From an uncultured bacterium (GTDB lineage Bacteria; Acidobacteriota; Vicinamibacteria; Vicinamibacterales; UBA8438): a stretch of DNA of 64,000 nt. A program made the translations under genes and the position numbers. The stretch spans positions 2,029-66,028 of the forward strand of contig CAWWAF010000003.1 in NCBI GenBank assembly GCA_963934795.1, written 5' to 3'. Under the pieces are notes generated by a model that had not been told where the DNA came from, ran no database searches, and saw nothing but the letters and a program-made list of their open reading frames with translations. Below are positions 5-57,835 of this stretch, piece after piece (the first letter of the stretch is position 1; each line of letters opens with the position of its first letter).

Positions 5-1276
5 TCACAGCGGGTCCTCAAGATACGGGATGGTCTGTGGGCCCTCTGGCAAGACGCAGACACGCGCCTTCGGTCCGAAGCGCGCGAGCGCCTCCCGCGT
101 GGCGGCACCGACGTCGTGGATCGGCGTCAGATGGACCGCTCGCACCTGCTCATCTGTCAGGCCCTCGGTCTTGAGCAGCACCGCAGCTCGCTGCTGAATC
201 TGGGCCTGCATCTGCACTTCCCATTGGTCATGACGGTTGTGACCCGGCGCGTTGATCATCTCCAGGAGCCCCTCGGCGGTATCGCGTTGGGTAAGAATAT
301 CTAGAAATTCGCCGTGGTCCGGGTAGCCATCCGCGCACGCAGCGGCGCAGATGATGATCCCATGAGGTTTCACGACCTGGGCCGCGGCCGACATGCCCTT
401 GATGGACTGATACAGGTTCTGATCGAGTGGGTAGCCACTGTTGGTCGTGACCACGACGTCGAACGGCTCTGCGAACGCCTGCATCGCTGTCTGCTTGACG
501 ACGGTACGGACGGTCCGATGGACGGCGAACAACTCACCGGCCTCCACATGCGTGATATTGCGGTCGCGGTTGATGGCGACATCGATGCTGAAATCGACCT
601 CAGACAAAGCCGCGATGTGGCGGACCGCATCGTGAATAGGATTCCCCTCGATCACGCCCCAACGAGCTTGTGGGTGTCGGATCATCTCGGCGTCGTGTAG
701 ACGCATGATCGTTTCGAACCCGGCCAGCCCCGGCGCGACGAGTTTTGGCCCGCCGCTAAAGCCAGCGAAGAAATGCGGTTCGACGAAGCCGGTCGTGATC
801 CGCACGTCCGCCTCGACCCACGTGCGGTTCAGCCACACCGGGATGCCGTCTACCTCGCCAAGCGACACCAGGGCAGAGGCGTCGAACGCATCGTGGATGA
901 CGATGCGGTTGCGGTCTACGATCTCAGCGCCGAACATCTCAATCAACTCGTCGCGTGTCGTGGCCCGGTGTGTGCCGCTGGCGACCATGATCGCGATCTG
1001 GGCGGTGGGGACGTGTGCCAGCGCATCCAGCAGCACTGGCAGCAGGGTTGCGCTTGGCATCGGGCGCGTGATGTCGCAGACGGAAATAGCGACCGTGTGG
1101 TCGGCTCGCACGAGGTCACGCAGGGGGGCGGTGCCGGTTGGGTGCTCGATGGCTTGCCGGATAGCGCCACGCTGGTCCGCCAGACCGTCGATATACGTTG
1201 GCTGGATCACCGTCGTCCGGTCGTCTGGGAATTCGACCGGAAGACCGGTGCGGCCGTAAGCGAGAGTGACGAGCAT
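5..1276 (-). CDS. LarA-family (DUF2088) nickel-pincer-dependent 2-hydroxyacid racemase/epimerase homologue
   Basis: 423-aa ORF. Motifs ASGTHR and EPHFFAGFSGGPK match, from memory, the cofactor-binding His/Lys regions of Lactobacillus plantarum LarA. The ATG lies 24 nt downstream of the selenoprotein stop on the same strand. Confidence 0.8.
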   Translation of the reverse strand: MLVTLAYGRTGLPVEFPDDRTTVIQPTYIDGLADQRGAIRQAIEHPTGTAPLRDLVRADHTVAISVCDITRPMPSATLLPVLLDALAHVPTAQIAIMVASGTHRATTRDELIEMFGAEIVDRNRIVIHDAFDASALVSLGEVDGIPVWLNRTWVEADVRITTGFVEPHFFAGFSGGPKLVAPGLAGFETIMRLHDAEMIRHPQARWGVIEGNPIHDAVRHIAALSEVDFSIDVAINRDRNITHVEAGELFAVHRTVRTVVKQTAMQAFAEPFDVVVTTNSGYPLDQNLYQSIKGMSAAAQVVKPHGIIICAAACADGYPDHGEFLDILTQRDTAEGLLEMINAPGHNRHDQWEVQMQAQIQQRAAVLLKTEGLTDEQVRAVHLTPIHDVGAATREALARFGPKARVCVLPEGPQTIPYLEDPL

Positions 1277-1300: not shown

Positions 1301-1852
1301 CTAGACCGCCACCAGGATGGCCAAGACTTGTGGGACGGCCTCGTCGGCGCGCGACTGAATTTCGGCGTCGGTGAGTGTGCTCAGCGGGTGCGTGATGACC
1401 ACTGTGTCCAGACCCTCCGCGCCGAGCGCCGCGCGCTGCACCTCGGCCTCTCGGACGAACGCCGCAGTGATGATAGCCGCGGTCGGCACGCCTCGTTGTT
1501 CCAGCCCGATGGCGTCGTGCAAACTGCACGACGTGCAGGACCCTCAATCTCCGATGGCGGTGATGACGGCGTCGTTCTCTGCCGCGATCTGGTCCAGCAA
1601 GGAGTCCGGGGCCGCCCGCGAGAAACTGCCCTTCGTGTAGTGCGTGATGGTCGCCGGTGCAGCCTCAGCTTCCAGCCGCGTTGCGACACGCCGCAGCAGG
1701 TTTGACCCGTTCCACTTCGAGTTGTCCAGGATAGCCACGCGCATGCCGCGCAGTGTCGCGAGTCGAGCGGCCAGCGCGACCGTCTCGGCCGTCACGGTGC
1801 CGCGTGGGTCGAAGACGGTCTGCCCAGACGGCAGGGTGGAATGCGTGGACAT
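1301..1852 (-). CDS. UGA-recoded selenoprotein, UxxCxxC (UGSC-type, GrdB-like motif), copy A, about 183 aa
   Basis: ORFs 1544..1852 and 1301..1522 share a frame and are separated only by TGA 1544..1546. Read-through gives ...VITAIGD-U-GSCTSCSLHDAIGLEQRGVP... A hairpin follows the TGA. A paralogue at 9718..10257 has the same architecture. Confidence 0.75.
1513..1533 (-). promoter_or_regulatory. putative bacterial SECIS hairpin (copy A)
   Basis: On the mRNA, CGUCGUGCA-GUU-UGCACGACG forms a 9-bp perfect stem. The stem starts at the 11th nt after UGA and the GU-containing apical loop lies about 20 nt after UGA. The nucleotide block is conserved in copy B. Confidence 0.6.
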
Positions 1853-1914: not shown

Positions 1915-3018
1915 TCACAACTCGCAGGTGCCGTCCGTGCATCGGACGTCGTTTTGGGGCGCCTGACCATCAATCGCGCGCAGTACCGGCGATGTCATGT
2001 GCCCCCAGCCAGGGAGGAACGCCGAAAATCGGCCGGCTTCGCCCCCCGCGACGAACAGGTGAATGTCGTCTGGAGACGGCACGATTGGAATACGCGCGCC
2101 CGGTTCGCGCCGATACCATTTGGGCAGATTGCGGTTGTAGATTTTGCCGTACCGGCCGTGGAAGCTGATGTCGTCGAAGGTGTTCGTGGTGTGTGACCAC
2201 AGATACCGTCGCACATCGCCGCGTGTCCAGCCGGCGCCAGCGATCGTGGCGGCGTGCTCCGGTCCGACGACGACAGCGCAGGAGCCACTGCTCACCGCGT
2301 TGTTGTGGGCGATGGTGCTCATACACGATACAAGACTATCCAGTACGCCTTGCGGGTCGTTCGCCACATGGTTTGTGACGCTATGCGGTCCTTCCGTGGC
2401 GATGCAGAACACCGTGCTGTCGTCGGGCCGATAGCCTTTTTCGACATGGTAGGGCGCCCACGGACTGGCTTCCTCGTGTTCGGCGATACAGAACGTGTAC
2501 TTCCCTGGATGACCGAGCGTGCTCTTGTCGAGGTCGCCCGGCCACCCGCCCCCGACATTGAGCATGATGAGCCGGAGGGCGCGGCCGATCGTGGCGTTCG
2601 CGCGGTTTCCGGAGCCGAACACGTTGGCGCCTGCGTTCATCCCGATCGTGCGGCGGATCGGGCCGTTCACGATGAGAAGCGGCGCGGCCATGTGCGTCGT
2701 GGCCTGTATGCCGTTGAGGTTGAAGTGTGCGCCACAGAGCGCCAGGATCGCGGCCCGGACGACCGGCGCGTAGGCTGGCGTGCATCCGGCCAGCACAAGA
2801 TTGATGGCGAGCACTTCCCGAGTGAGGTTGCCCCACCGGGGTGGCACCCGCGTCTCCAGCCGGTGCGCGTCTCCGCCCAGCGCCTCGACCATCGCGGCGA
2901 CTGTTGCCGTGGTTGGTGGCACCACCGGAAGCCCGTCGGTCCATCCCTGTTCGAAATACCACTCAACGAGATCGAGCTGCGTGTCCGTGGTAATCGTGGA
3001 TGCGGAGGCGTCTGGCAT
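1915..3018 (-). CDS. conserved hypothetical protein, selenoprotein-partner family (copy A)
   Basis: Long ORF. The ATG at 3018 is preferred over the TTG at 3060. It is colinear with residues about 190-558 of ORF 10311..11948, with shared blocks DGLPVVPPT, LAGC(T/R)P, VNGPIRR, FG.G.RANATIGRAL, STLG.PGK(Y/F)T.C and GKFSAFL.GW. I do not recognise the family. Confidence 0.6.
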   Translation of the reverse strand: MPDASASTITTDTQLDLVEWYFEQGWTDGLPVVPPTTATVAAMVEALGGDAHRLETRVPPRWGNLTREVLAINLVLAGCTPAYAPVVRAAILALCGAHFNLNGIQATTHMAAPLLIVNGPIRRTIGMNAGANVFGSGNRANATIGRALRLIMLNVGGGWPGDLDKSTLGHPGKYTFCIAEHEEASPWAPYHVEKGYRPDDSTVFCIATEGPHSVTNHVANDPQGVLDSLVSCMSTIAHNNAVSSGSCAVVVGPEHAATIAGAGWTRGDVRRYLWSHTTNTFDDISFHGRYGKIYNRNLPKWYRREPGARIPIVPSPDDIHLFVAGGEAGRFSAFLPGWGHMTSPVLRAIDGQAPQNDVRCTDGTCEL

Positions 3019-3095
3019 GGTCGGCGGTGGGTCCTGACGTGGGCTCACGACTTGACACAATCACTATAGTGCACGCCGCGACGCGGGTCCCCTTG

Positions 3096-3532: not shown

Positions 3533-5449
3533 ATGAGGGAGAGGATGCCGAGATTCGTCGCCGCGATCGCCGCCTGCCTGCTCGTCGCCGCGCCGGTCGC
3601 CGCGCAGCGGGGCGCGGCCGACGGCCAATGGGCGAGCTACGGAGGCGACGACGGCAGTACGAAGTATGCGCCGCTCGACCAGATTGATGCCGGGAACGTG
3701 GATCAACTCGAAGTGGCGTGGACCTGGGCCTCGGCGGACAACGCGGTGCTCGCGCAGAATCGTGAACTCAGTGCACGCGGGTTCAAGGGCACGCCCGTGA
3801 TGGTCGATGGCGTGCTCTATGTGCGGACATCGCTCAGCATTGTGGCCGCGATTGACGCCGCGACGGGTGAGCAGCTCTGGGTCCGTGACGTTGGGAGCTA
3901 CGACGCAGGGCGGCCAACCAACCTCGGGTTCAACACCCGCGGCGTGGCGCACTGGTCGGACGGTGTCGAGTCCAGGATCTTCCTCGCGACTGGTGACTCG
4001 CATCTGTGGTCGTTCGATGCCGCGACCGGGCAGCCGATCGGTCGCTTCGGTGGCGACGGCAAGGTCGATTTGACCCAAGGACTTTTGCGTGAGGTCCCGC
4101 GAGGCGCATATCAGGTCATGTCCCCGCCCATGGTTGTGGGTGACGTCGTGATCGTCGGGTCGTCCATCTCCGACGGTCCCCAGAATATGACGGCGCCGCC
4201 GGGTGATATCCGCGGCTTCGACACCCGCACCGGTCGTCTGCTCTGGACGTTTCACACCGTCGCCCAAGCCGGAGAGTTCGGGAACGACACCTGGGAGGAC
4301 AACTCTTGGCGCTATACGGGCAACACGAATGTGTGGACCGTCATGAGCGCTGACCAGGAACTCGGTTACGTGTATCTCCCGATCGGGACCCCGACCAACG
4401 ACTGGTACGGTGGACATCGGTTGGGCGACAATCTGTTCGCGGAGAGCCTGGTCTGTCTGGATGCCGCCACCGGTGAGCGGGTCTGGCATTTTCAGATGGT
4501 GCACCACGGGCTGTGGGACTACGACCTCCCGGCCGCGCCGACGCTGGTCGACATCACGGTCGATGGCCGGGATATCAAGGCGGTCGCGCAGGTGAGCAAG
4601 CAGGGGTTCACCTATGTGTTCGACCGCGTGACGGGCGAACCGGTCTGGCCGATCGAGGAACGTCCGGTGGCGCAGTCGTCGGTGCCAGGTGAGCGCAGCT
4701 CGGCGACGCAGCCATTTCCCACCAAGCCACCGGCCTTCGAGCGTCAAGGGATGTCCGTGGACGCGCTCATTGACTTCACACCCGAACTGCGCGCTGAGGC
4801 CGAGCAGATTCTGTCCGGGTTCGAGTACGGAGACCTCTTCCATCCGCCGTCCGAGAAGGGCACGATTCAGATGCCAGGCTGGGCCGGTGGGGCCAATTGG
4901 TACGGCGCCGGGTTCGACCCTGAGACGGACTATCTGTATGTCCCCTCACGGACAGATCCCATTTCCGTGCGCCTGGTGCAGCCGGACCGTGAGCGTTCCG
5001 ACTTTACCTACCGGCGTGGCCGCAGTGGATTGCGCGGTCCGCAGGGCCTTCCGCTCGCGAAGCCACCCTATTCACGGCTGACGGCGATCAATCTTGCGAC
5101 CGGCGAGCAGGCCTGGCAGGTGCCGCTGGGAGACGGACCCCGGCAACAAGTCATCGACCTTGGGGCCCCGGACCCCGGGCCGCTCGGTGGCGCTGTATAC
5201 ACGGGCCCCGTCGTAACGGAGACGCTGCTCTTCCTGGGGCTCCGTGGCAACCGCGACACGGGGCAGGAGCCGGTGCTGAATGCGTATGACAAAGCGAACG
5301 GAGAGATCGTGCATGCCGTCGACCTCCCGGTTCCGCTCAACGGAACCCCGATGACCTATATGGCCGAGGGCCGGCAGTACGTTGTGGCGGCCTACAGCAG
5401 CGGTGTCGACTCGGGGCTCCTCGCGCTGGCATTGCCGACAGATCCCTGA
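3533..5449 (+). CDS. periplasmic PQQ-dependent dehydrogenase (glucose/quinate-type beta-propeller quinoprotein)
   Basis: 638 aa with a signal peptide, then WASYGGDDGSTKYAPLDQIDAGNVDQLEVAWTW, which is typical of the quinoprotein N-terminus. There is no vicinal Cys-Cys. It is a paralogue of 14034..16070. Confidence 0.85.
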   Translation: MRERMPRFVAAIAACLLVAAPVAAQRGAADGQWASYGGDDGSTKYAPLDQIDAGNVDQLEVAWTWASADNAVLAQNRELSARGFKGTPVMVDGVLYVRTSLSIVAAIDAATGEQLWVRDVGSYDAGRPTNLGFNTRGVAHWSDGVESRIFLATGDSHLWSFDAATGQPIGRFGGDGKVDLTQGLLREVPRGAYQVMSPPMVVGDVVIVGSSISDGPQNMTAPPGDIRGFDTRTGRLLWTFHTVAQAGEFGNDTWEDNSWRYTGNTNVWTVMSADQELGYVYLPIGTPTNDWYGGHRLGDNLFAESLVCLDAATGERVWHFQMVHHGLWDYDLPAAPTLVDITVDGRDIKAVAQVSKQGFTYVFDRVTGEPVWPIEERPVAQSSVPGERSSATQPFPTKPPAFERQGMSVDALIDFTPELRAEAEQILSGFEYGDLFHPPSEKGTIQMPGWAGGANWYGAGFDPETDYLYVPSRTDPISVRLVQPDRERSDFTYRRGRSGLRGPQGLPLAKPPYSRLTAINLATGEQAWQVPLGDGPRQQVIDLGAPDPGPLGGAVYTGPVVTETLLFLGLRGNRDTGQEPVLNAYDKANGEIVHAVDLPVPLNGTPMTYMAEGRQYVVAAYSSGVDSGLLALALPTDP

Positions 5450-8114: not shown

Positions 8115-9671
8115 TCACGCCATGTCTGGCGGCACCGGTTCTGCGCCCGTCAGCATCTCGTAGAAGTTCTCACGGACGCCCGTCTGACTGGTCAACAGTG
8201 AGACGACCGGTACCACGATGAGCGGGATAAAGAACGTCAGATACGATGGGTCAATGCCCTGACCGTCGACCGTCAGCGCGTAGGCCAGGGTGCGCCAGGC
8301 GAGGCCGGCATCCGGTGCCGCTGCGAACCCCGTCGCAAGCGCAATTTTGATCAGAGCGAACCAGATCAGGCCTGATCCGTAGCCGATGGCCATACCCCAG
8401 TACGCGCCTGGTTCGGTGGTACGCCGCCAGTACACGAGATAGCCGAGCGACACGGCGGGCGGCACCACCATGGCGAACCCGAACAGCAACAGGTCGAGAA
8501 TCGAGATGGTGGTATAGGTCGCGACCAGCCACGCCGCGATCGCGGCCGCGAAGGCATACACCGTGGTCGTGATCCGATAGGCCTTCAGACGTTGTTCCGA
8601 ACTGTAGCGTCTGGTGAAGGGGAGCCAGTCGCGGACAAACATGGTGGCGCTTGAGAGCAAAATGGGCCCGCCCGAGGAAATGACCGCGGCCAGGACCGCC
8701 GCAAGCGCAATGCCGCCGACGACCGGACTGATTTCCGAGGCGAGCGTCGTCAGGTTCCGGTAGCCGCCAATCCCGGTGTCCAGCCCGTAGCGAGCGGTCG
8801 TGAGAATACCGATCACGCCAGCCAGCATCGGCATGACCCCGGCGATGAGGCCGGCAAGGAGAAACGCGGGAGCAATGTGCCGTTCGCTTCTGGCGGCGGT
8901 CGAGTAGTTCGTGTAGACCGACGCGGCCGGCGTGTGCACCGCCGCGGCGAAGAACATCCCGAAGACCGGAAGCCAGCCGGCCCCTGCGAATCCCCACCAG
9001 GCGCCGGTGTCGCGCGAGGCCGCGACCAGGTGTTCGTCAACAGTGGCGGTCACGGCCGTCCATCCACCGAGCTGGTCGACGCCCATCACGCCGACAGCGA
9101 TCAACCCGATGAGCACGACCGAGCAATGGATCAAATTGGTGACCGCAGTACCCCAGAGGCCACCAAGCGACACATACGTGGCGAAGATGCAGGCTGCCAC
9201 CATGACACCACCGAACATGGGGAGCGGAGTCAGGGTGCTCAGGATGACGCCGATGACGTACGCCTCGATCAAATTCACGATGGCGTATTCGGTCTGGACA
9301 CAGAGGCTGGTCAGCCACTGGCAGCGGCGGTTCTTGAAACGGATCGTGAAGAGTTCTCCGACGGTGCGCAGTTTGAAGCGGCGGAAGTAGATGCAGAAGA
9401 ACAGACCGACGATGGCCAGCGCCAGGAAGGCGTTGATCCCGTACCACCACAGGTTCCAGACGCCGCCACTGATGACATCGCCCGCGACGCCATAGGTGCC
9501 AGCTCCGCCAATGCGGGTGCCGGCTATACCGACGGCGACCAAGCTGGTCGACATCCCACCGCCAGCCACTGCCCAGCCGGTCGAGTCGCTGGTGCGACGC
9601 GCCATCAGGCTGCCGGCGGCGGTGGCCGCAACCAGATAGACGACGATGGTGGTCAGCGCGATGGCATCCAT
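8115..9671 (-). CDS. sodium:solute symporter (SSS) family transporter
   Basis: 518 aa with about 13 predicted TM helices. The N-terminal pattern ...AGSLMARRTSDSTGWAVAGGGMS... is typical of SSS family members. Confidence 0.85.
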   Translation of the reverse strand: MDAIALTTIVVYLVAATAAGSLMARRTSDSTGWAVAGGGMSTSLVAVGIAGTRIGGAGTYGVAGDVISGGVWNLWWYGINAFLALAIVGLFFCIYFRRFKLRTVGELFTIRFKNRRCQWLTSLCVQTEYAIVNLIEAYVIGVILSTLTPLPMFGGVMVAACIFATYVSLGGLWGTAVTNLIHCSVVLIGLIAVGVMGVDQLGGWTAVTATVDEHLVAASRDTGAWWGFAGAGWLPVFGMFFAAAVHTPAASVYTNYSTAARSERHIAPAFLLAGLIAGVMPMLAGVIGILTTARYGLDTGIGGYRNLTTLASEISPVVGGIALAAVLAAVISSGGPILLSSATMFVRDWLPFTRRYSSEQRLKAYRITTTVYAFAAAIAAWLVATYTTISILDLLLFGFAMVVPPAVSLGYLVYWRRTTEPGAYWGMAIGYGSGLIWFALIKIALATGFAAAPDAGLAWRTLAYALTVDGQGIDPSYLTFFIPLIVVPVVSLLTSQTGVRENFYEMLTGAEPVPPDMA

Positions 9672-9717: not shown

Positions 9718-10257
9718 CTACGAATGTGACGTGAGCGCGTTGAGGATCGCGTCGATCGCCAGCTGCGCCTTTACCCGCATCTCATCGTCGGTTGAACCCT
9801 GAATCGGGTGTGGTACGAAGACCGAGTTGGTGGCCATGTCCGGGATCCCGAGCGCTTCCGCTTGGGTCTTGGCCGCGTGCACGAACTCCGTCGACGCCAC
9901 CATGACCGACGGAATACCGCGCATCTCGTAGTCCACCAGGTCGTGCACACTGCACGACGTGCAGGACCCTCAATCGGCGAGCGCCTGGATGACGGCCTGG
10001 CAGCGACTGCTGACTTCGTCGCGAAGATCTGGCGGCGACGGTTTGGTATAGGTCGGCTTCCTCAGCCGGAGCACCTGAAGCGCCGGAAGCCGTTCTCGTA
10101 TGAGGCGCTCGAGCTCGTCGAGAAAGACGTCCCCGCGCGGTTTCGCGATGTCGACGATGCCAATCGTGCCCGTCAACTGGTCAGGGCGGTCGGCTAGCTG
10201 GCGCCTGATGACCGTGCGTTCGTCGGTCGGGTCAAGAATGACCAGCGGCTCGTGCAT
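9718..10257 (-). CDS. UGA-recoded selenoprotein, UxxCxxC (UGSC-type), copy B, about 179 aa
   Basis: ATG at 10257 is preceded by AAGGAAG. In-frame TGA at 9970..9972. Read-through gives ...CQAVIQALAD-U-GSCTSCSVHDLVDYEMRGIP..., the same frame as ORF 9718..9948. Same hairpin and motif as copy A. Confidence 0.75.
9940..9958 (-). promoter_or_regulatory. putative bacterial SECIS hairpin (copy B)
   Basis: GUCGUGCA-GUG-UGCACGAC forms an 8-bp stem. The stem starts at the 12th nt after UGA and the apical loop lies about 20 nt after UGA. Confidence 0.6.
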
Positions 10258-10310
10258 AGGATATCTTCCTTTCTTGAATCGGACTGTCGCTGACTGTATC
10301 ACCAGGGCTG

Positions 10311-11948
10311 CTAGGGCCGGATCTCGCGGGTGACGGCCATAGACCCGGCCGCGCCGTTCGCCCATCCTCCCAGAAAGGCTGAAAACTTGCCGGTGGTGCC
10401 GCCCGCCACCATGACGAGGATGTCCGTGTCTTGTTGGAACTTCGACAGGGGCGTGTCCAGGCCTTCGGCGGTCGGCTGTCCGTCCGGACCGAGTAGGGCG
10501 TTGGGCACTGCGCGCATGGTCATGCCTTTCTGGCAATCGGCATCCGGGAGCAGCTCGCGCAGCGGCCGTGCGGTGGCTTCCTGTATTCGGGCACGGAGAT
10601 CCGCCTTGGTGTACCCGTCGCGCTCGAAAATTTGGATATGTTCGGGGCTGACTACGAGCAGCGCTTCTCCCACGTGAGCCAGCTTCGGATGCGCCATGGA
10701 CTGAAGGCACATTCCCATGCTCGCGCCGAGTGAGGGTGCAGTTCGGGAGAGCTGGTCGCGAATCGCTCTGGGCGCTTCGCCGGCGAACACGGTGACCGTG
10801 CTGACGTCGGCCGCGAAGCCACGCTCAACATGGAACGGCTCCCAGCAACTGGCCTCCTCAAGCTCGCCCACGCAGCAGGTGAACTTGCCGGGTTGTCCGA
10901 GCGTCGACATGTCAACGCCGCCTGGTTTTCCGCCGCCGATGTTGCGGACCACGAGCTGCAGGGCGCGTCCAATCGTGGCGTTGGCGCGGAAGCCCTGCCC
11001 GAAGAGGTTGGGGCCGCAGTTGAGGTCGATGGCTCGTCGAATTGGACCATTGACGACAATGACCGGTGCCACAAAGTAGGTCGTGGCCAGCACGCCGTGA
11101 AGATTGAACTGGTCCGTGCAGGCGGCCTCGGTCGCCGCAATCACGACCGGCAGATAGTCCGGACGGCACCCCGCCATGACGGCGTTGATGGCGATTTTCT
11201 CGACCGTGGCTGGGGCGAGGTTCGGGGGGACGTGCGCCACGACGTCAGAGGCGGCGCGTTCGGTGCCCTCGAGCATGCGCAGCACCCGCGCCTCGGTCGG
11301 GGGTACCACCGGCAGCCCGTCGTCGAGTCCCTGCGCCGACAGGAAGTCGAACGGGTCGTTGTCAATCGGCACCTGCACGCGCCTGGCGCCGAGCGTTGCG
11401 GCGCCTCGGCGGACGGCCAGGTGTCGGGCCATGTCTGGGTCATGGACCTTCGAGCCGCAACCGGGGCGATGCTCCGGTAGTCCGTCACCGTCGTGCACGA
11501 GACGTGGCACGGCGGCACCGCACGCCGCCGCGGCCCGCTCGGTGAGCGTCAGGAGATCTGGTCGAGTAAATCCCTCGAAGCTGGCGAGTACCGCGCGGTC
11601 AGGGTCGACGAGGACCAGCGCCGGGACGGCGTCGAATCCGTAGTCGGCTGACACTTCAAGGTCGCCATCGAGCGCGACGGCAAAGGATAGGTGGTGACGG
11701 GCGACGACGTCGGACGTGTAGGCGACCGCGTCTTGGGAAATACCGACGACGCGAAGCCCTTCGTCGGAGAGCGCGGTGTGTAAGCGCTCCACGAGTGGGA
11801 GCGTGAGATCACAGGTTGCACAGTCGTGCTTGAAGAAGACCAGTAACGTGGGAACGGCATCACCGCCCCCGAATGCTACGACCTGGTTGTTACCCGTGGA
11901 TAGCGAGAACGCGGGCGCCATCGCGCCCAGAGCTGGTAGTTCTGACAT
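10311..11948 (-). CDS. fusion protein: N-terminal thioredoxin-fold (TlpA/redoxin-like, CxxC) domain plus selenoprotein-partner domain (copy B)
   Basis: The N-terminal about 150 aa read APAFSL...LLVFFKHDCATCDLTLPLVERL...VVGISQD...AVPALVLVD, a redoxin-like pattern with CATC. The remainder is homologous to 1915..3018. The ATG at 11948 is preferred over the GTG at 11987. Confidence 0.65.
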   Translation of the reverse strand: MSELPALGAMAPAFSLSTGNNQVVAFGGGDAVPTLLVFFKHDCATCDLTLPLVERLHTALSDEGLRVVGISQDAVAYTSDVVARHHLSFAVALDGDLEVSADYGFDAVPALVLVDPDRAVLASFEGFTRPDLLTLTERAAAACGAAVPRLVHDGDGLPEHRPGCGSKVHDPDMARHLAVRRGAATLGARRVQVPIDNDPFDFLSAQGLDDGLPVVPPTEARVLRMLEGTERAASDVVAHVPPNLAPATVEKIAINAVMAGCRPDYLPVVIAATEAACTDQFNLHGVLATTYFVAPVIVVNGPIRRAIDLNCGPNLFGQGFRANATIGRALQLVVRNIGGGKPGGVDMSTLGQPGKFTCCVGELEEASCWEPFHVERGFAADVSTVTVFAGEAPRAIRDQLSRTAPSLGASMGMCLQSMAHPKLAHVGEALLVVSPEHIQIFERDGYTKADLRARIQEATARPLRELLPDADCQKGMTMRAVPNALLGPDGQPTAEGLDTPLSKFQQDTDILVMVAGGTTGKFSAFLGGWANGAAGSMAVTREIRP

Positions 11949-12013
11949 CGCGTCGCATTGTGGCAGCTTTCGGGCCGCGAGCGCCACTCAACGCCAGCGT
12001 CACGTGTCCGGTG

Positions 12014-14033: not shown

Positions 14034-16070
14034 CTAGGGCAGCGCCAAGGCGATGAGCTCCGGCACGGGGGAGCCGCCTACCGTCAGCGCCACGTATTGC
14101 TTGCCGTCCAGCAGATACGTCATCGGCGTGCCGATGGCGCCGCGCGGAAGGTCGACCGAGGCGAGTGGCTCGCCGGTGGCCTTGTTGATTGCCAGGAGGC
14201 GTGGACCGCCGTCACTGCCTCCCGTCGTGAGCGCATACATGAGCAGCGTCTTGGTCACCAACGGTCCGCTCCGGCTCCCATCACCTCCAACGGGTGGCAG
14301 GTTGAGGTCCCGGAGCATCGGATGATTGCGCACCCGATCGCCGTCGCCCAGCGGCTGCATCCAGGTGTGGTCGCCGGTATTGAGATTGATGGCGGTCATT
14401 CGGGAGTAGGGCGGCTTGAAGAGAGGAAGCCCCTGCGGCATCGTCACCTGACGGGCATATTCTCCTCGTCCTTCGATGACGGCGAGCGTGGCGTCCTCGC
14501 CCGGTTGTGGCTCGCGATAGCGGCGAAGACTGAACGCGTTGGACGATGGCACGTAAAGCAGACCGGTCTCCGGGTCGACGCCCGCACCTGACCAGTTCGC
14601 GCCACCCCCAGAGCTGGGTCGCTGGATGGTGCCGCTCAGACTCTGTGGCGTAAAGAGCGGCCCGAGGCGGAATCCCTCGACAGCGTCGATCGCCATCTGT
14701 CTGATCTCGGGAGTGAAATCGACCAGGTCCTCGATGGTAGCGCCCTGATACTCGAATGGCGCCGGGCGTGTGGGGAACGGCTGCGTCGGCCAGACTTGCT
14801 CACCGGGGATGTCGGTGTCCGTTGGCACCGCGCGTTCTTCGATCGGCCAGACCGGTTCGCCGGTGACTCGATCGAAGACGTACACAAACCCTTGCTTACT
14901 GATCTGCGCGAGCGCCTTGATGGGGCGGCCGTCGACTTCAATGTCAACCAGGTTCGGTGCGGCCGGAAAGTCGTAGTCCCAGAGGCCGTGGTGCACCGCC
15001 TGGAAGTGCCACTCGCGCTCCCCGGTCTCAATGTTCAGCGCAATCACGCTCTCCGCGAACAGGTTCGCGCCGGGTCGGTGCCCACCGTAGTAGTCGGGGG
15101 CCGGTGTATTGGTGGGGAGATAGAGGAGGCCCAGGTCCTCGTCGGCGCTCATCAGCGACCATACCCCGACCTTGCCGGTGACTCGCCATGAGTCGCCGCC
15201 CCACGTGTCATTGCCGAACTCATCGCCCTGGGGAATCGTGTGAAACGTCCACTTCGTGCTTCCCGAGTGCACGTCAAAGCCGCGCATCCAGCCGGGGGGC
15301 GCCTCGCGCGTGATGTTGTATGACGAGATGGAACTGGGCGTGATTACCGTGTCGCCGACCACGATCGGCGGTGACTGTACGGAGTAGAGCAGCGCATTGA
15401 GCCAGTCCCGATTTTCGCGATCCGCCCGCGGGAGGTCCCGCACCAAGTCGAGCCGCCCATTCTCGCCAAAGTCGAGGCAGGGGCGGCCGGTCGCCGCGTC
15501 GACGCAGATGAGGTACCCGTTTCCGGTGCCCCAATACACCCGCTCGGACTCACCGTCGCTCCAATACGCCACGCCCCGTTGGTTCCAGCGGGCGCTCATG
15601 GTGGTGGTACCGGCTTCGTACGTCTTGGGGTTGTACACCCAGAGCGTGTCGCCCGTCCTGGCGTCGATGGCCGCGCCGGCCGACGTCGGCATGTTGATAA
15701 ACATCCGCCCATTGGCCATCAGCGGTGTCGCCTTGAGGTTGTTCGTATATGGCGGTTGGCCGTCGCGCCACCGATTGGGGTCCGCCTGGTTCAGGGCCTC
15801 GAAGATCACGTCTGACGGCGCCGACCACTCGCCACCGTCCGGCGTGGTGAGACTCATCACGGCGTCAGAGGATTGCCAGCGCCAGGCAATCTCAAGGTCG
15901 GCGAAGTTTGACGCGTCAATCTGGTCAAGCGGCGAGTATTTGGTGCCGCCCAGGTCGCCTCCATAGGTCCGCCACTCACCAGTGGCTGGTGCGCCCTGTT
16001 GCGCGGCGGCGGGGGTCGTGGCTGCCAAGGCGACAGCTGCGACTCCGCAAAATCGAGTCCATGTGCTCAT
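14034..16070 (-). CDS. periplasmic PQQ-dependent dehydrogenase, paralogue of 3533..5449
   Basis: The start at the internal ATG 16070 is preceded by GGAGAG. A signal peptide is followed by GEWRTYGGDLGGTKYSPLDQIDASNFADLEIAWRW. Colinear with the other copy. Confidence 0.85.
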   Translation of the reverse strand: MSTWTRFCGVAAVALAATTPAAAQQGAPATGEWRTYGGDLGGTKYSPLDQIDASNFADLEIAWRWQSSDAVMSLTTPDGGEWSAPSDVIFEALNQADPNRWRDGQPPYTNNLKATPLMANGRMFINMPTSAGAAIDARTGDTLWVYNPKTYEAGTTTMSARWNQRGVAYWSDGESERVYWGTGNGYLICVDAATGRPCLDFGENGRLDLVRDLPRADRENRDWLNALLYSVQSPPIVVGDTVITPSSISSYNITREAPPGWMRGFDVHSGSTKWTFHTIPQGDEFGNDTWGGDSWRVTGKVGVWSLMSADEDLGLLYLPTNTPAPDYYGGHRPGANLFAESVIALNIETGEREWHFQAVHHGLWDYDFPAAPNLVDIEVDGRPIKALAQISKQGFVYVFDRVTGEPVWPIEERAVPTDTDIPGEQVWPTQPFPTRPAPFEYQGATIEDLVDFTPEIRQMAIDAVEGFRLGPLFTPQSLSGTIQRPSSGGGANWSGAGVDPETGLLYVPSSNAFSLRRYREPQPGEDATLAVIEGRGEYARQVTMPQGLPLFKPPYSRMTAINLNTGDHTWMQPLGDGDRVRNHPMLRDLNLPPVGGDGSRSGPLVTKTLLMYALTTGGSDGGPRLLAINKATGEPLASVDLPRGAIGTPMTYLLDGKQYVALTVGGSPVPELIALALP

Positions 16071-16237
16071 CGGGTCTCTCCTCGCAAAGACGTGTCTCGC
16101 ACTGCTACCCAGATGGTGACGGGTACGGCGCCATGATACCCGACTGTCATCGCCGGCCGAGGCCAACGGCGTCTGTGGGCGCCGGCCGCGTAGGCGGTCT
16201 TTTTCGATGACGAACGACGGGTTAGAATGTCGGCACC

Positions 16238-34578: not shown

Positions 34579-34679
34579 GCCCCATGGTACGCTAGCGACT
34601 GACTCGGAGGGGCACACCGCACCGTGGTGCGTCACTCGACCAACGCCAGCCCCGCGCTTCACCCGCGAACCCCCGCCTA

Positions 34680-35402
34680 GTGATGTCTCCGCTCGACACT
34701 GTGCTCGTCGTCCTCTGTAGCGTGGCGGGGTTTACTCTGCAGGGCGCCGTTGGGATCGGAATAGGAATCCTGGGTTCGCCGCTTTTGCTCTTGATCGACA
34801 GCCGTTTCGTGCCGGGGCCCATCTTGGCTTCGACGATGGTGTTCACGTGCCTGATGACGCTGCGAGAACGTCGAGCCATCGACCTCAGCGGTGTGCGGTG
34901 GGCAATGGCGGGTCGGTTTATCGGCACGTTGCCGGCGGCCGCGGTGCTGACTGTGCTTCCCGCCGAGCAGCTGAGCCTCGTCCTTGGGGCGATCGTCCTG
35001 CTGGCCGTCGGCATCAGTGTGTCGGGGCTGCGCGTCGAGCCGCGGCCGGCGGCCCTGCTGACCGGCGGGGTTCTGTCCGGCCTGATGGGAACGATCGCAG
35101 CGATCGGGGGACCGCCGCTCGCCTTGCTGTATCAGCGGGCGTCCGGTGCGCAGGTGCGCGGGACGCTGTCCAGCGTGTTCCTGGTCGGGACGGTCATGTC
35201 CCTGACCGCACTCGTCTTCGTGGGACGATTCGGCCGAGAGGAACTGGAACTCAGCCTCATGCTCGCGCCCGGCGTCGTGGTCGGTTTTCTGCTCTCGCGG
35301 CGAATAGCCTCGCGGCTTGACCAGGGGTATACACGCCGTGCGGTTCTGGCCGTGGCCTCCGCCGCGGGTGTGGTCGTCGTTGCGCGCTATTTCGCAGCCT
35401 GA
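34680..35402 (+). CDS. sulfite exporter TauE/SafE family membrane protein
   Basis: 240 aa with about 7-8 TM helices and the duplicated-halves pattern typical of TauE/SafE (DUF81). Confidence 0.8.
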   Translation: MMSPLDTVLVVLCSVAGFTLQGAVGIGIGILGSPLLLLIDSRFVPGPILASTMVFTCLMTLRERRAIDLSGVRWAMAGRFIGTLPAAAVLTVLPAEQLSLVLGAIVLLAVGISVSGLRVEPRPAALLTGGVLSGLMGTIAAIGGPPLALLYQRASGAQVRGTLSSVFLVGTVMSLTALVFVGRFGREELELSLMLAPGVVVGFLLSRRIASRLDQGYTRRAVLAVASAAGVVVVARYFAA

Positions 35403-43980: not shown

Positions 43981-45390
43981 TTAGTAGTCGTTCTGGTCCA
44001 TCGACACCCGGATGATTTCCTCGTCGTTCCGCAATACCAGGTGGCGGTTGGCGAACGCCGGGTGCGACCAGACCACGAGGCGGTCGCTCTGGCCATGGGT
44101 GGCGCGACCGCGCGAGCCGGCCCTGGCCCCGCCGTACCCGGACCGCGAGGTGGGATTCATCAGGTGGGTTCGGTCCAGCTCGACATATCCCTCCGTGTTG
44201 AACTGCGCGATGATCAGATCGCCGTTCTCGTTGTAGACGAAATAGCGGTCTTCGTGCTGGATGAAATACGCTGACCCCCACCGATTTCTCGTGGTCAGTC
44301 CTTCCGCTTCCCACAGCCGTTCGCCGGTCTCGGCCAGCAGGCCGCGCACCTGTCCATGGCTGCCGATGCCATAGATGTAGTCGCCGACGATGAGCGGCGT
44401 CGTCATCACCGAGTGAAGCCCCGTGCTTTCAGCCACCTCGACGTCACCCACCGAGACCCGGTTGTTCTCGCCGCGCCAGATGGCGGTCGCGTCCGGTCGG
44501 TCCTGGTCGAGCCGCATCATCAGCGACCCGCTGTAGAACCCGGATACAAATAGATAGGGTCCGCTGTGGACCGCGTCGGCCACCGTCATGTTGGCTCGGC
44601 CCCGGAACTCTTCTTCCCAGTACAACTCACCGGTTTCGGGGTCGAGCGAGGAGAGTCCTCGCGGGTGCCAGACGATCAGCTGTTTGGCCCCGCCAGCCTC
44701 AATGATGCTGGGCTGGTGATACCCCATCTCCGTGCGGCTCTCGATGGCCCGCCACACCTCGTCACCGGTGTGCTTGTCGAAGGCCATCACCAGCGCGTCC
44801 GGTTCGCCGCCTACCAGCAGGATGACGCGGTCGCCGTCGATTAACGGGGCACTCGACGTTCCCCAGACCGGAATGTTGGTGTCGTACTCGGCGACCGTAT
44901 CTTTCTCCCAGATCACCGCACCGGTTTCGACATTCAGGCACAGCACGAGCCCAGTCGACCCCACGACATACACGCGGTCTCCGTCCACCGTGGGACTGGC
45001 GCGGGGGCCGGTCGCGTATGTGAACATCAGCATCCGGTAGGTGGTGGGCCACTCGTGGCTCCACAGCACCTCTCCCGTCTCTTCGTCGAGCGCGAGGACA
45101 CGTTCGGTCCCGTCCATCGTTCGCGGTTCGGTCTCCACATAGTCGAGCACGAACACGCGGCCATCGGCGACGGAGGGCCCTGAATAGCCGCCGTTCACCG
45201 GGACGCGCCACTTCACGGTCAAGCCTTCGTCTGGAAACTCCTCGAGGATCCCGGTCTCGGTCCACAGTCCCAGACGCTCGGTGCCGCGCCATTGAGGCCA
45301 GTCCTTTGCGGACAGCGTGGGGACGGCTGCGGTCGCCGCGGTGAAGAGGCCGACGAGCGCGATGAGCGCGATGCGATGTGCTGGCTGCAT
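43981..45390 (-). CDS. PQQ-like beta-propeller repeat protein (BamB-like fold, secreted)
   Basis: Signal peptide followed by KDWPQWRGTERLG. Repeated blades of the pattern ...DG.V(Y/F)V.... 469 aa. Confidence 0.75.
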   Translation of the reverse strand: MQPAHRIALIALVGLFTAATAAVPTLSAKDWPQWRGTERLGLWTETGILEEFPDEGLTVKWRVPVNGGYSGPSVADGRVFVLDYVETEPRTMDGTERVLALDEETGEVLWSHEWPTTYRMLMFTYATGPRASPTVDGDRVYVVGSTGLVLCLNVETGAVIWEKDTVAEYDTNIPVWGTSSAPLIDGDRVILLVGGEPDALVMAFDKHTGDEVWRAIESRTEMGYHQPSIIEAGGAKQLIVWHPRGLSSLDPETGELYWEEEFRGRANMTVADAVHSGPYLFVSGFYSGSLMMRLDQDRPDATAIWRGENNRVSVGDVEVAESTGLHSVMTTPLIVGDYIYGIGSHGQVRGLLAETGERLWEAEGLTTRNRWGSAYFIQHEDRYFVYNENGDLIIAQFNTEGYVELDRTHLMNPTSRSGYGGARAGSRGRATHGQSDRLVVWSHPAFANRHLVLRNDEEIIRVSMDQNDY

Positions 45391-45580
45391 AGTCGTGACC
45401 CAGTGTGAAGGAGGAACTTATTGTCCGAGGTAGTCGGCGTTGCTAACCGGCTTGCCGTCCATTGGACTCCACAGGAACGCGGCGACGCCGAGCGCCAGCG
45501 CGACGCGCAACCCCGTCGTGACGTGTCTTGTCATGGAGCCATCCTATCCCCGTCGGGGCACCTCCGCAATGCGCCGGGCA

Positions 45581-56967: not shown

Positions 56968-56992
56968 CGAGTAGCGGCCCACCATTGTCATC

Positions 56993-57835
56993 GTGTCGAT
57001 TACGGGACCACTGACGGACCCCGACGAGCTGGCCAAGCACCTGGGCCGGCCGGGCGTTGTCGTGTTGGACGTCAGGCGTGGCGAGCGATTCGCGACGGCA
57101 CACCTGCCCGGCGCGAGACACTTCAGTGTCTACGGCATCAACACCTATGACACCGATGAGTCATCGCTACGGTCGTTCGTGCGGATGTGGGCATTCCAAC
57201 TGAACCTGGCGGGAATTAGACGGGACGATACGGTGGTCGTGTGCGGCGACTACAGTGACGAGCCCGCCGCCCGCGCCTACTGGTTCTTGAGATACCTCGG
57301 ACATCCGGAGTGTGCGCTGCTGGACGGTGGGTTGACCGGGTGGGCACGCGCCGGACACCAGACAGAACAGGCGGCGGCGGTTCCCCTCCCAACCTCCTAT
57401 CGGTACACCGTAGTCGATGCGCTGGTCGCCAATTGGCGCCAAGCCGGGGCCGCCGGACGCGACGCCACCGCGGTGTTGCTCGACACCCGTAGCGACGAGG
57501 AGTGGTACGGACACGATGGCCGGGGAGCCGAGCGCGCGGGCGCCATGCCGGGAGCCGTGCATCTCGAGTGGACGCACCACTTGGGCGAAGACGGGCGGTT
57601 CAAGTCGCCCCGCATGCTGTCGGCCCTGTTTGAGGATGTTGGTGCCACGCCGTCGGCACCCGTGGTGGCCTACTGCAATACCGGCTACCGGTCGGCCCAC
57701 GCCTGCCTCGCGCTCGAGTTGGCTGGCCACGTGCCGGCCCGCAACTACGTGGGCTCGTGGCAAGAGTGGGGCAATCGGTCTGAGTGTCGGGTGGTCCGGC
57801 CGTCTCCACGCGGCGGCGCTGCGCCGCTGGCCTAG
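56993..57835 (+). CDS. rhodanese-domain sulfurtransferase (thiosulfate/3-mercaptopyruvate type, two domains)
   Basis: Tandem rhodanese architecture with the active-site loop YCNTGYRSAH. GTG start. Confidence 0.8.
   Translation: MSITGPLTDPDELAKHLGRPGVVVLDVRRGERFATAHLPGARHFSVYGINTYDTDESSLRSFVRMWAFQLNLAGIRRDDTVVVCGDYSDEPAARAYWFLRYLGHPECALLDGGLTGWARAGHQTEQAAAVPLPTSYRYTVVDALVANWRQAGAAGRDATAVLLDTRSDEEWYGHDGRGAERAGAMPGAVHLEWTHHLGEDGRFKSPRMLSALFEDVGATPSAPVVAYCNTGYRSAHACLALELAGHVPARNYVGSWQEWGNRSECRVVRPSPRGGAAPLA

What the first reader, a model, noticed from the sequence alone, without database searches (positions are those of the whole stretch)
9718..10257. Second, paralogous UxxCxxC selenoprotein gene (copy B) with the same TGA architecture
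From ATG 10257 (RBS AAGGAAG) the frame reads 95 aa to ...CQAVIQALAD. It then meets TGA at 9970..9972 and continues in frame as GSCTSCSVHDLVDYEMRGIPSVMVAS... to TAG at 9718. The N-terminal and C-terminal halves are only moderately similar to copy A. The D-U-GSCTSCS core and the downstream hairpin are retained. An identically placed in-frame TGA in two diverged paralogues is hard to explain as a sequencing error or a pseudogene.
Basis: partly seen in the sequence, partly recalled or inferred. Interest (0 to 1): 0.8.

Follow-up and report, generated by a model that had tools for sequence, protein, structure and literature searches.

The report
Known UGSC-family selenoprotein gene, second copy
This is a real gene in which an in-frame TGA is almost certainly read as selenocysteine, but it belongs to the UGSC family, a selenoprotein family already catalogued from ocean metagenomes whose function is still unknown.

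Summary
On the minus strand, ATG 10257 (RBS AAGGAAG 7 nt upstream) opens a frame of 95 codons, then TGA at 9970..9972, then 83 codons to TAG at 9718.

Read through, the product scores 152.9 bits against NCBIfam NF041046, 'UGSC family (seleno)protein' (cutoff 125), and 151.7 bits against Pfam PF24696. The TGA falls at profile position 69. This family was described in 2008 as one of the main marine selenoprotein families.

- All 87 homologous genes fetched, from several phyla, carry TGA at this codon.
- 78 of 86 more distant full-length homologs carry Cys there.
- dN/dS stays at about 0.2-0.35 downstream of the TGA.
- Synonymous sites are frozen exactly over a hairpin at nt +15..+33. Its apical G23-U24 sits at the same distance from UGA as in the E. 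coli fdhF SECIS.
- In alphaproteobacterial relatives, selB and tRNA-Sec lie directly upstream of the module.

By-products: a partner gene (TlpA-like CxxC domain plus an unclassified ~340-aa domain) sits directly upstream in 77 of 85 loci and is fused to Cys-type UGSC proteins. The predicted UGSC fold is flavodoxin-like, not thioredoxin-like. Sec machinery in this organism could not be checked.

The parts
9718..10257 (-). Copy B coding sequence: 95 codons + UGA (Sec) + 83 codons + TAG; UGSC-family selenoprotein of 179 residues
   Evidence: sequence and translation. NF041046 152.9 bits against a cutoff of 125, PF24696 151.7 bits. The N-terminal half matches profile positions 4-68 and the C-terminal half 70-147.
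10265..10271 (-). Shine-Dalgarno-like AAGGAAG, 7 nt upstream of the ATG
   Evidence: The start is consistent with the Pfam profile beginning at residue 7 and with homolog N-termini.
9970..9972 (-). In-frame UGA, predicted Sec codon (residue 96, motif D-U-G-S-C-T-S-C)
   Evidence: TGA in 87 of 87 homologous genes. Cys at the aligned position in 78 of 86 full-length distant homologs.
9940..9958 (-). SECIS-type hairpin, nt +15..+33 counted from the U of UGA: 8-bp stem GUCGUGCA/UGCACGAC with apical loop G23-U24-G25 (9948..9950)
   Evidence: The 6-bp core is paired in 74 of 74 distinct sequences. Synonymous sites are frozen over codons +5..+8. G23, U24 and U26-C30 coincide in position with the E. 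coli fdhF SECIS (PMC8659212).
10311..11948 (-). Conserved partner gene, 53 nt upstream on the same strand: TlpA/ResA-like thioredoxin-fold domain (C56-A-T-C59) plus a ~340-aa C-terminal domain of no described family. The longest ORF starts at GTG 11987; homologs suggest the ATG at 11948.
   Evidence: domains. Directly upstream of UGSC in 77 of 85 loci. Fused to Cys-type UGSC proteins. At least 7967 homologs.
8115..9671 (-). Sodium:solute symporter family gene 46 nt downstream; lineage-specific neighbour (Vicinamibacterales only)
   Evidence: PF00474, TIGR00813. Present downstream in only 9 loci (L001-L009), all close relatives; the named ones are Vicinamibacterales MAGs.
1301..1852 (-). Copy A, the paralogous UGSC selenoprotein gene (UGA 1544..1546; hairpin 1513..1533)
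   Evidence: NF041046 158.2 bits. B-like and A-like copies also sit together in L011 and L012.
1915..3060 (-). Copy A's partner: paralogue of the ~340-aa C-terminal domain only, without the thioredoxin-like domain
   Evidence: About 42% identical to the C-terminal part of the copy-B partner (seen in its L001-L006 copies, which are 95-100% identical to the window gene). No Pfam or NCBIfam family.

Best explanation
Copy B is a functional gene of the UGSC selenoprotein family in an uncultured marine Vicinamibacterales (Acidobacteriota) bacterium.

**Decoding (shown by comparative sequence evidence).** The UGA at 9970..9972 is read as selenocysteine. An mRNA hairpin inside the coding sequence (nt +15..+33, apical loop G23-U24) acts as a bacterial SECIS. 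Inferred from the established E. coli mechanism, SelB-GTP carrying Sec-tRNA(Sec) binds this hairpin and delivers Sec to the ribosome paused at UGA.

**Product (inferred from a model of a 56%-identical homolog).** The 179-residue product is predicted to be a five-stranded alpha/beta, flavodoxin-like protein. Sec lies in the loop between strand 3 and helix 3, and Cys+3 lies at the helix N-terminus, in the same strand-to-helix position as a CxxC redox centre.

**Function (inferred from gene order and fusions, not shown).** The U-x-x-C pair cycles between selenol/thiol and selenenylsulfide. It passes reducing equivalents to or from the protein encoded directly upstream. In that protein a TlpA/ResA-like CxxC domain is joined to an uncharacterised ~340-aa domain that is probably the substrate-handling part. 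The substrate is unknown.
For: **Family membership.** NF041046 scores 152.9 bits (cutoff 125) and PF24696 151.7 bits. The two halves hit adjacent profile segments, 4-68 and 70-147.

**Sec/Cys pair.** TGA is present in 87 of 87 fetched homologs from Acidobacteriota, Chloroflexota, Actinomycetota and Proteobacteria. Database proteins are truncated at exactly ...ALAD. 78 of 86 full-length distant homologs have D-C-G-S-C at this position.

**Translation past the TGA.** dN/dS of the C-terminal half against seven orthologs is about 0.17-0.35, similar to the N-terminal half. In-frame GC3 is 0.83.

**SECIS.**
- Codons +5..+8 are NCG in 82 of 83 sequences, TGC in 83 of 83, AGT in 83 of 83 and NTG in 83 of 83.
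- The same amino acids at +2, +3 and +4 use all their codons.
- The core stem is paired in 74 of 74 distinct sequences. One pair varies: G-C 66, G-U 7, A-U 1.
- G23, U24 and U26-C30 occupy the same positions as in fdhF.
- An established Cys-type gene with the same peptide has lost the hairpin codons: TCA TGT TCG.

**Link to Sec machinery.** tRNA-Sec lies directly upstream of partner + UGSC in 7 alphaproteobacterial loci. In 6 of these, selB precedes it.

**Standard code.** TGA is an ordinary stop in 8 of 31 domain-supported genes in the window.

**Partner.** It is adjacent in 77 of 85 loci, fused in P0224, P0234, P0267, P0268 and P0289, and also adjacent to Cys-type genes.

**Fold.** The model has pLDDT 82.8. 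Foldseek hits are flavodoxin, B12-binding and DpaB proteins, with no thioredoxin among the top 50.
Against: - No selA, selB, selD or tRNA-Sec is present in the 64-kb window, so Sec competence of this organism is not shown.
- True covariation in the hairpin is minimal. Five of six pairs never vary, and 66 of 500 shuffles reach the observed score.
- Folded alone, the hairpin is not unusually stable.
- No Rfam family matches.
- The hairpin lacks the bulged U17 of the E. coli element.
- No member of the family has been characterised experimentally (PMC13188914).
- The structure model is of a homolog, has lower confidence around the active site (pLDDT 64 for residues 91-100), and has no close structural relative (TM <= 0.5).
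- The redox-relay role rests only on gene order and fusions.
Confidence: 0.9

Rival explanations
1. Split gene or pseudogene. The TGA terminates translation, and the locus yields a 95-aa N-terminal fragment, with or without a separately initiated 76-aa C-terminal fragment. This is how gene callers annotate it.
For: Public gene calls split it into 95-aa and 76-aa ORFs. A GTG exists 21 nt downstream of the TGA. No Sec machinery is seen in the window.
Against: - TGA is conserved at exactly one codon in 87 of 87 genes across phyla, and Cys occupies it in distant homologs.
- The active-site string GSCTSCS lies between the TGA and the GTG and would be lost from both fragments, yet it is invariant.
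- Purifying selection is uninterrupted across the junction.
- Neither half reaches the family cutoff alone.
- selB and tRNA-Sec are linked to the module in relatives.
Confidence: 0.04
2. UGA is read through as a standard amino acid (Trp, Cys or Gly) by a reassigned code or near-cognate suppression, not as selenocysteine.
For: One homolog in the database carries Trp (TGG) and one carries Cys (TGT) at this codon.
Against: - TGA ends 8 of 31 ordinary genes in the window, so the code is standard.
- The TGG and TGT variants are single-contig sequences one nucleotide away from TGA, and both retain the full hairpin.
- A dedicated hairpin with G23-U24 at the fdhF spacing is held at synonymous sites only in TGA-type genes.
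- tRNA-Sec and selB sit next to the gene in relatives.
Confidence: 0.03
3. Sequencing or assembly artefact, or local gene conversion between copies A and B, creates the shared TGA and the identical 30-nt tract.
For: 29 of 30 nt are identical between two paralogues that are otherwise about 45% identical at the DNA level. This is what a conversion tract would look like.
Against: The same TGA is found on 17 independently assembled contigs. The same nucleotides are conserved in 83 distinct genes from different phyla, most of them with one copy in the ~8-kb stretch fetched. The identity therefore reflects shared constraint, not exchange within this genome.
Confidence: 0.01

Closest known systems
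UGSC family (seleno)protein: NCBIfam NF041046 and Pfam PF24696; the 'UGSC-containing protein' of Zhang & Gladyshev 2008 (PMC2398784), example ABI76733.1
   Same: Scores above the curated equivalog cutoff over the whole profile. Has the D-U-G-S-C motif and TGA at the family's Sec position. Comes from an aquatic or marine source. More than one copy per genome is already implied in the literature: 33 genes in 26 organisms (PMC5029168).
   Different: Nothing essential differs; this is an ordinary member. The host is new (marine Vicinamibacterales). The predicted fold is flavodoxin-like, whereas the 2008 paper guessed a thioredoxin-like fold.
E. coli fdhF SECIS, the reference bacterial selenocysteine insertion sequence
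   Same: A hairpin inside the coding sequence immediately 3' of UGA. The upper stem-loop spans about nt 15-31/33. G23 and U24 are in the apical loop, and U26-G27-C28-A29-C30 is at identical positions (description in PMC8659212).
   Different: The loop has 3 nt (G-U-N) instead of the 4-nt GGUC. There is no bulged U17, because C17 is paired. The stem has 6-8 perfect pairs. SelB binding has not been tested.
Thioredoxin-fold UxxC/CxxU selenoproteins (Trx-like, Prx-like, SelW-like) of marine bacteria
   Same: Sec is paired with a Cys three residues away, at a strand-to-helix junction. Cys-containing homologs exist. A thiol/selenol redox function is presumed.
   Different: The predicted topology is five consecutive beta-alpha units (flavodoxin/Rossmann-like). 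No thioredoxin-fold structure appears among the top 50 Foldseek hits. The thioredoxin fold is supplied instead by the partner protein's TlpA/ResA-like domain.
Glycine reductase selenoprotein A (GrdA) working with thioredoxin and substrate-specific proteins (from general knowledge; analogy only)
   Same: A small Sec/Cys redox protein encoded beside, and presumed to work with, a larger substrate-handling protein and a thioredoxin-type reductant.
   Different: No sequence or family relationship was detected. The motif is UxxC, not CxxU. The hosts are mostly aerobic aquatic bacteria. The partner domain matches no Gly/Pro-reductase family.

Membership tests
UGSC family (seleno)protein (NF041046 / PF24696) | Whole-protein score above the curated cutoff, with full-length profile coverage | tested here: met
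   152.9 bits against a cutoff of 125, profile positions 4-147 of 147. Pfam 151.7 bits against 25, profile positions 2-171 of 172. Copy A scores 158.2 bits.
UGSC family (seleno)protein (NF041046 / PF24696) | U/C-G-S-C motif at the conserved position after a beta-strand ending in ...ALAD | tested here: met
   The motif reads D-U-G-S-C-T-S-C-S-V-H-D, identical to the string in 83 homologs.
UGSC family (seleno)protein (NF041046 / PF24696) | Association with the upstream TlpA-like/unknown-domain partner. This is an empirical feature found here, not a formal criterion. | tested here: met
   The partner ends 53 nt upstream. The same arrangement is seen in 77 of 85 loci, and fusions exist.
Bacterial selenoprotein gene | In-frame UGA aligned with Cys in homologs | tested here: met
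   78 of 86 full-length homologs have Cys at the aligned column. TGA is present in 87 of 87 close homologs.
Bacterial selenoprotein gene | Coding constraint continues in frame downstream of the UGA | tested here: met
   dN/dS of the C-terminal half is about 0.17-0.35 against seven orthologs; GC3 is 0.83. The C-terminal half matches profile positions 70-147.
Bacterial selenoprotein gene | SECIS hairpin at the right distance 3' of UGA, with a conserved G(U) in the apical loop | tested here: met
   The stem spans nt 15-33 with loop G23-U24-G25. Synonymous sites are frozen. Positions match fdhF. Covariation itself is weak, and no Rfam model matches.
Bacterial selenoprotein gene | Sec-decoding machinery (selA, selB, selC, selD) in the same genome | not testable with these tools
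   None is present in the 64-kb window. In relatives, selB and tRNA-Sec are adjacent to the module.
Bacterial selenoprotein gene | Selenium demonstrably incorporated (75Se labelling or mass spectrometry) | not testable with these tools
   This needs an experiment. Reviews state that these families remain uncharacterised (PMC13188914).
Thioredoxin-fold redox protein (assignment suggested in PMC2398784) | Thioredoxin fold | tested here: not met
   The AF2 model (pLDDT 82.8) has five beta-alpha units. The top 50 Foldseek PDB hits are flavodoxin-like, B12-binding, DpaB and CheY-like proteins, with no thioredoxin. This rests on a model of a 56%-identical homolog, so confidence is moderate.

The most novel reading that the evidence does not exclude
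UGSC proteins may not be stand-alone thioredoxin-like redox proteins. They may be the flavodoxin-like seleno-subunit of a widespread, undescribed two-gene (sometimes fused) enzyme system. Its other component would be a TlpA-like CxxC domain joined to a ~340-aa domain that has no Pfam, NCBIfam or PDB sequence relative, at least 7967 homologs, and invariant Cys/His residues. This window would carry two diverged copies of the system: one with the thioredoxin-like domain (copy B) and one without it (copy A).
Probability: 0.55. Interest if true: 0.5.

Novelty: already known. Interest (0 to 1): 0.25.

Why it matters
For the genome scan, this is a correct call made from raw sequence alone, but it is a catalogued family. 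NCBI's annotation pipeline has an equivalog model for it, and reviews from 2008 to 2026 list it.

Its practical value is as an annotation fix. Public gene calls for this organism and for hundreds of relatives split the gene into two nameless ORFs.

The wider interest lies in the family. It is among the most abundant selenoprotein families in aquatic metagenomes, yet it has no known function. The results here give concrete handles for working the function out:
- a near-universal partner gene with an unclassified domain;
- fusion proteins linking that domain to UGSC;
- selB and tRNA-Sec linkage in roseobacters, some of them cultured (Sulfitobacter);
- a non-thioredoxin fold prediction.

Tried and rejected
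- **Rfam.** Scans at gathering threshold over the whole window and at E <= 10 over 9850..10050 found no SECIS or other credible RNA family.
- **Hairpin stability alone.** Not significant against shuffles.
- **Formal covariation.** Underpowered, because five of six pairs are invariant. I rely on synonymous-site freezing instead.
- **PDB sequence search of copy B.** No hit even at E <= 10.
- **P0002 (Cys) and P0001 (Trp).** I first took these as independent full-length homologs. Their DNA shows TGT and TGG with the SECIS intact. They are one-step derivatives or read errors and do not count as Sec/Cys-pair evidence. The distant homologs are used for that.
- **Sec machinery in the window.** Pfam annotation of about 40 ORFs, ARAGORN, and tblastn with a SelB from L053 all gave nothing.
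- **Fold search of the partner model.** The N-terminal ResA-like domain dominated the hits. The C-terminal domain could not be searched alone because the structure jobs were exhausted.
- **Lenient Pfam search of the C-terminal domain.** Only a noise-level MttB hit at E = 0.14.
- **A third conserved gene around the module.** Only lineage-level synteny was found; the largest cluster covered 16 of about 80 loci. A TrxB-like neighbour occurs in only 3 loci.
- **'Unknown_1' domain of PMC2398784.** I could not tell whether it is the partner domain found here, because Figure S1 is an image.

Full report
**1. The observation**

On the minus strand an ATG at 10257 is preceded by AAGGAAG (10271..10265, 7-nt spacer). 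It opens a frame of 95 codons ending ...CQAVIQALAD. An in-frame TGA follows at 9972..9970, then 83 more sense codons (GSCTSCSVHDLVDYEMRGIPSVMVAS...), ending at TAG 9720..9718.

A degenerate DNA pattern for TGA-GSCTSC occurs twice in the window (0.05 expected). The second site is copy A, at 1301..1852 with TGA at 1544..1546. The two conceptual proteins are 33% identical. Their DNA is about 45% identical, except for 29 of 30 nt from the Asp codon through the hairpin. In-frame GC3 is 0.78 before and 0.83 after the TGA.

**2. What it is**

With Sec written as Cys, the read-through product matches NCBIfam NF041046, 'UGSC family (seleno)protein', an equivalog model. The score is 152.9 bits against a cutoff of 125. 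It also matches Pfam PF24696 'UGSC' at 151.7 bits.

The halves taken separately match adjacent parts of the same profile, positions 4-68 and 70-147. They score 49.4 and 82.2 bits, both below the cutoff. The TGA therefore sits at profile position 69, inside one domain. Copy A scores 158.2 bits.

The family is the 'UGSC-containing protein' of Zhang & Gladyshev. It is listed with a UxxC motif, with 255 Sec forms against 21 Cys forms in the GOS metagenomes, as one of the major marine and freshwater selenoprotein families (PMC2398784). Reviews in 2022 and 2026 still list it, the latter with NF041046, and state that such families remain functionally uncharacterised. A 2016 survey counted 33 genes in 26 organisms, so more than one copy per genome is not new either.

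**3. Is the TGA real, and is it decoded?**

- *Not an artefact.* The identical 95-aa N-terminal half, ending at the same stop, is called on 17 contigs from independent marine assemblies (TARA, FRAM Strait and others). The C-terminal half is called as a separate 76-aa UGSC ORF.
- *TGA in close homologs.* In the 5.8-billion-protein collection nearly all close homologs are fragments. About 44 are N-terminal halves ending exactly at ...ALAD, and 773 hits to the C-terminal half are nearly all fragments of about 72-76 aa. A scan of one genome per species returned at least 595 related stretches. All 87 UGSC genes in the 85 loci held at that point have TGA at this codon. They come from Acidobacteriota, Chloroflexota, Actinomycetota, Alpha- and Gammaproteobacteria and others.
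- *Cys in distant homologs.* A full HMMER search of 1.84 billion representatives found 1404 relatives. Of 86 with at least 150 residues, 78 have Cys at the aligned column (D-C-G-S-C). The third Cys of the Sec forms is often Trp in these.
- *Selection past the TGA.* Against seven orthologs, dN/dS of the part downstream of the TGA is about 0.17-0.35, similar to the upstream part.
- *Standard code.* TGA terminates 8 of 31 domain-supported genes in the window, so the genetic code is standard.

*A caution.* The two closest 'full-length' homologs, P0002 (Cys) and P0001 (Trp), carry TGT and TGG with the whole hairpin intact, each on a single contig. They are one-step derivatives or read errors, not independent evidence.

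**4. The hairpin**

Counting the U of UGA as nt 1, copy B folds G15-U-C-G-U-G-C-A22 / U26-G-C-A-C-G-A-C33 around the loop G23-U24-G25 (window 9958..9940). Copy A forms 9 bp (1533..1513).

Alone, this is no more stable than shuffled sequence (z = -0.66), and no Rfam family matches. The comparative evidence is what is strong. Across 83 distinct genes:

| Codon after TGA | Amino acid | Codon use |
|---|---|---|
| +2 | Ser | six codons |
| +3 | Cys | TGC 57, TGT 26 |
| +4 | Thr | four codons |
| +5 | Thr/Ser | NCG 82/83 |
| +6 | Cys | TGC 83/83 |
| +7 | Ser | AGT 83/83 |
| +8 | Val/Leu/Met | NTG 83/83 |

The frozen codons +5..+8 cover exactly the hairpin, while the same amino acids just upstream vary freely. 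AGT is a rare codon in GC-rich genomes, so codon bias cannot explain it.

The 6-bp core is paired in 74 of 74 distinct sequences. Only one pair varies (G-C 66, G-U 7, A-U 1, the last a double change in L055). Formal covariation is therefore weak, with 66 of 500 shuffles as good.

As a control, a well-attested Cys-type gene encoding the same peptide (P0167, DCGSCTSCSTHD) uses TCA TGT TCG ACT, which abolishes the hairpin. Another (P0238) uses AGC, which changes the loop to GCG.

I recalled the E. coli fdhF SECIS sequence and verified it at 100% identity inside fdhF of 5419 of 5426 E. coli genomes. Aligned from the UGA, G23, U24 and U26-G27-C28-A29-C30 are at identical positions in fdhF and in the UGSC genes. 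A review states that the fdhF upper stem-loop spans nt 15-31, 11 nt from the UGA. It names U17, G23 and U24 as the conserved bases, and U17 and G23 as the SelB contacts (PMC8659212). The UGSC element lacks the bulged U17 and has a 3-nt loop.

**5. Link to the Sec machinery**

The window holds no tRNA gene and no selA, selB or selD. Sec competence of this organism is therefore not shown.

At family level the link is direct. In 7 of 80 genome loci, tRNA-Sec (anticodon tca) lies immediately upstream of the partner + UGSC pair. These are alphaproteobacterial loci (including Sulfitobacter sp. M05 and F26169L) and one labelled Sulfopaludibacter. In 6 of the 7, selB precedes the tRNA.

**6. Organism and context**

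The nearest genome hit is a Vicinamibacterales (Acidobacteriota) MAG from Fram Strait, 94% identical over the gene. Other Vicinamibacterales are 66-70% identical.

The local order is PQQ dehydrogenase, nucleoside hydrolase, VWA protein, a 545/558-aa 'peroxiredoxin/TlpA-like' protein, UGSC, a sodium:solute symporter, and a FadB-like enzyme, all on one strand. This order is kept in relatives.

Only one neighbour is conserved beyond the order. The gene ending 53 nt upstream of copy B is found directly upstream of UGSC in 77 of 85 loci from all phyla. Its parts are:
- an N-terminal ~150 aa ResA/TlpA-like thioredoxin-fold domain with C56-A-T-C59;
- a remaining ~340 aa with no Pfam, NCBIfam or PDB-sequence match, yet at least 7967 homologs and invariant Cys, His and Glu residues.

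Copy A's upstream gene (1915..3060, 381 aa) is a paralogue of that C-terminal domain alone, at about 42% identity. Cys-type UGSC genes have the same upstream partner. Several Cys-type proteins are fusions of UGSC with this domain: P0224, P0234, P0267, P0268, P0289 and others. This may be the 'UGSC/Unknown_1 fusion' noted in 2008, but I could not verify that because the figure is an image. No other gene is broadly conserved around the module.

**7. Structure**

An AlphaFold2 model of P0002 was built with 116 sequences, mostly half-length. P0002 is 56% identical to copy B. The model has pLDDT 82.8 and pTM 0.79. It consists of five consecutive beta-alpha units. The Sec/Cys residue lies just after strand 3, and Cys+3 lies at the start of helix 3.

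Foldseek against the PDB gives only generic three-layer alpha/beta matches with TM <= 0.5: flavodoxin, B12-binding domains, dipicolinate synthase B and CheY-like domains. There is no thioredoxin-fold protein in the top 50. The 2008 suggestion of a thioredoxin-like fold is therefore not supported by this model. Confidence around the active site is lower (pLDDT 64 for residues 91-100).

The partner model (pLDDT 83.1) confirms the ResA-like N-terminal domain. Its C-terminal domain could not be searched on its own.

**8. Mechanism**

*Shown by sequence comparison.* Copy B is a UGA-containing member of the UGSC family. It is under protein-level selection on both sides of the UGA. It carries a nucleotide-level-constrained hairpin at the canonical SECIS distance.

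*Inferred from the E. coli paradigm.* SelB-GTP with Sec-tRNA(Sec) binds the hairpin and inserts Sec at residue 96.

*Inferred from motif, model, gene order and fusions.* U96 and C99 form a reversible selenenylsulfide. They exchange reducing equivalents with the partner's CxxC domain and/or its unknown domain, which probably binds the substrate. The substrate and the physiological role are unknown.

Rival readings are each contradicted by several independent results (section 3) and together receive under 10%. They are a split gene or pseudogene, read-through as a standard amino acid, and an artefact or gene conversion.

**9. Verdict**

It is an ordinary member of an already catalogued selenoprotein family, so novelty is 'already known' and interest is low (0.25).

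The by-products may be worth a specialist's attention, because the family is abundant and still has no known function:
- the near-universal partner with an unclassified domain;
- the fusions of that domain to UGSC;
- the selB and tRNA-Sec linkage in roseobacters, some of them cultured;
- the flavodoxin-like fold prediction;
- the clean synonymous-site footprint of the SECIS.

Noticed in passing
window 10311..11987 (-); also 1915..3060 (-): The gene upstream of each UGSC copy carries a ~340-aa domain with no Pfam, NCBIfam or PDB-sequence match. It has at least 7967 homologs and invariant C274, C372, H433 and E449-H450. It lies directly upstream of UGSC in 77 of 85 loci and is fused to Cys-type UGSC proteins. 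In the copy-B version it follows a TlpA/ResA-like CxxC domain; the copy-A version lacks that domain.
   Followed up: partly
window ~11436..11468 (-), residues 174-184 of the 558-aa partner: A near-invariant string R-P-G-C-G-S-K-V-H-D-P sits in the linker between the thioredoxin-like domain and the unknown domain. It echoes the UGSC active-site string D-U-G-S-C-T-S-C-S-V-H-D. Its meaning is unknown.
   Followed up: no
loci L026, L053, L060, L063, L066, L073, L081 (about 1.7-2 kb upstream of the UGSC gene): tRNA-Sec (anticodon tca) lies immediately upstream of the partner + UGSC pair. In six of the seven loci selB precedes it. These are alphaproteobacterial genomes, including cultured Sulfitobacter strains.
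   Followed up: yes
L086:947-1486 and L087:333-848: The two closest full-length homologs carry TGT (Cys) and TGG (Trp) at the Sec codon while keeping the complete SECIS hairpin. These are recent Sec-to-Cys/Trp changes or read errors. A true Cys-type gene (L088:2501-3055) has lost the hairpin codons.
   Followed up: yes
window, 31 domain-supported genes: Stop-codon use is TAG 18, TGA 8, TAA 5. TAG is unusually frequent for a genome of 65% G+C. Both UGSC copies end in TAG.
   Followed up: no
window 5..1276 (-): Immediately downstream of copy A lies a nickel-dependent LarA-type lactate racemase homolog (NF033504, 515 bits against a cutoff of 460). A close LarA homolog (70-72% identical) also lies near the UGSC genes in Vicinamibacteraceae loci L010 and L011; in L011 it follows the A-like copy.
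   Followed up: partly
window 3533..5449 (+), 14034..16166 (-), 43981..45417 (-): There are two full-length PQQ-dependent alcohol/glucose dehydrogenase genes, plus a third PQQ_2/BamB-like beta-propeller protein, in one 64-kb window. One of the dehydrogenase genes belongs to the conserved gene string around copy B.
   Followed up: no
L088/L089:1-989 and L032:4803-5636: A TrxB-like pyridine-nucleotide disulfide oxidoreductase gene lies next to the partner + UGSC module in 3 loci only. It could be an electron donor, but it is not conserved.
   Followed up: partly
window 56975..57835 (+) and 34596..35402 (+): A tandem-rhodanese sulfurtransferase and a TauE/SafE sulfite-exporter family gene lie elsewhere in the window. 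No link to the UGSC genes was established.
   Followed up: no
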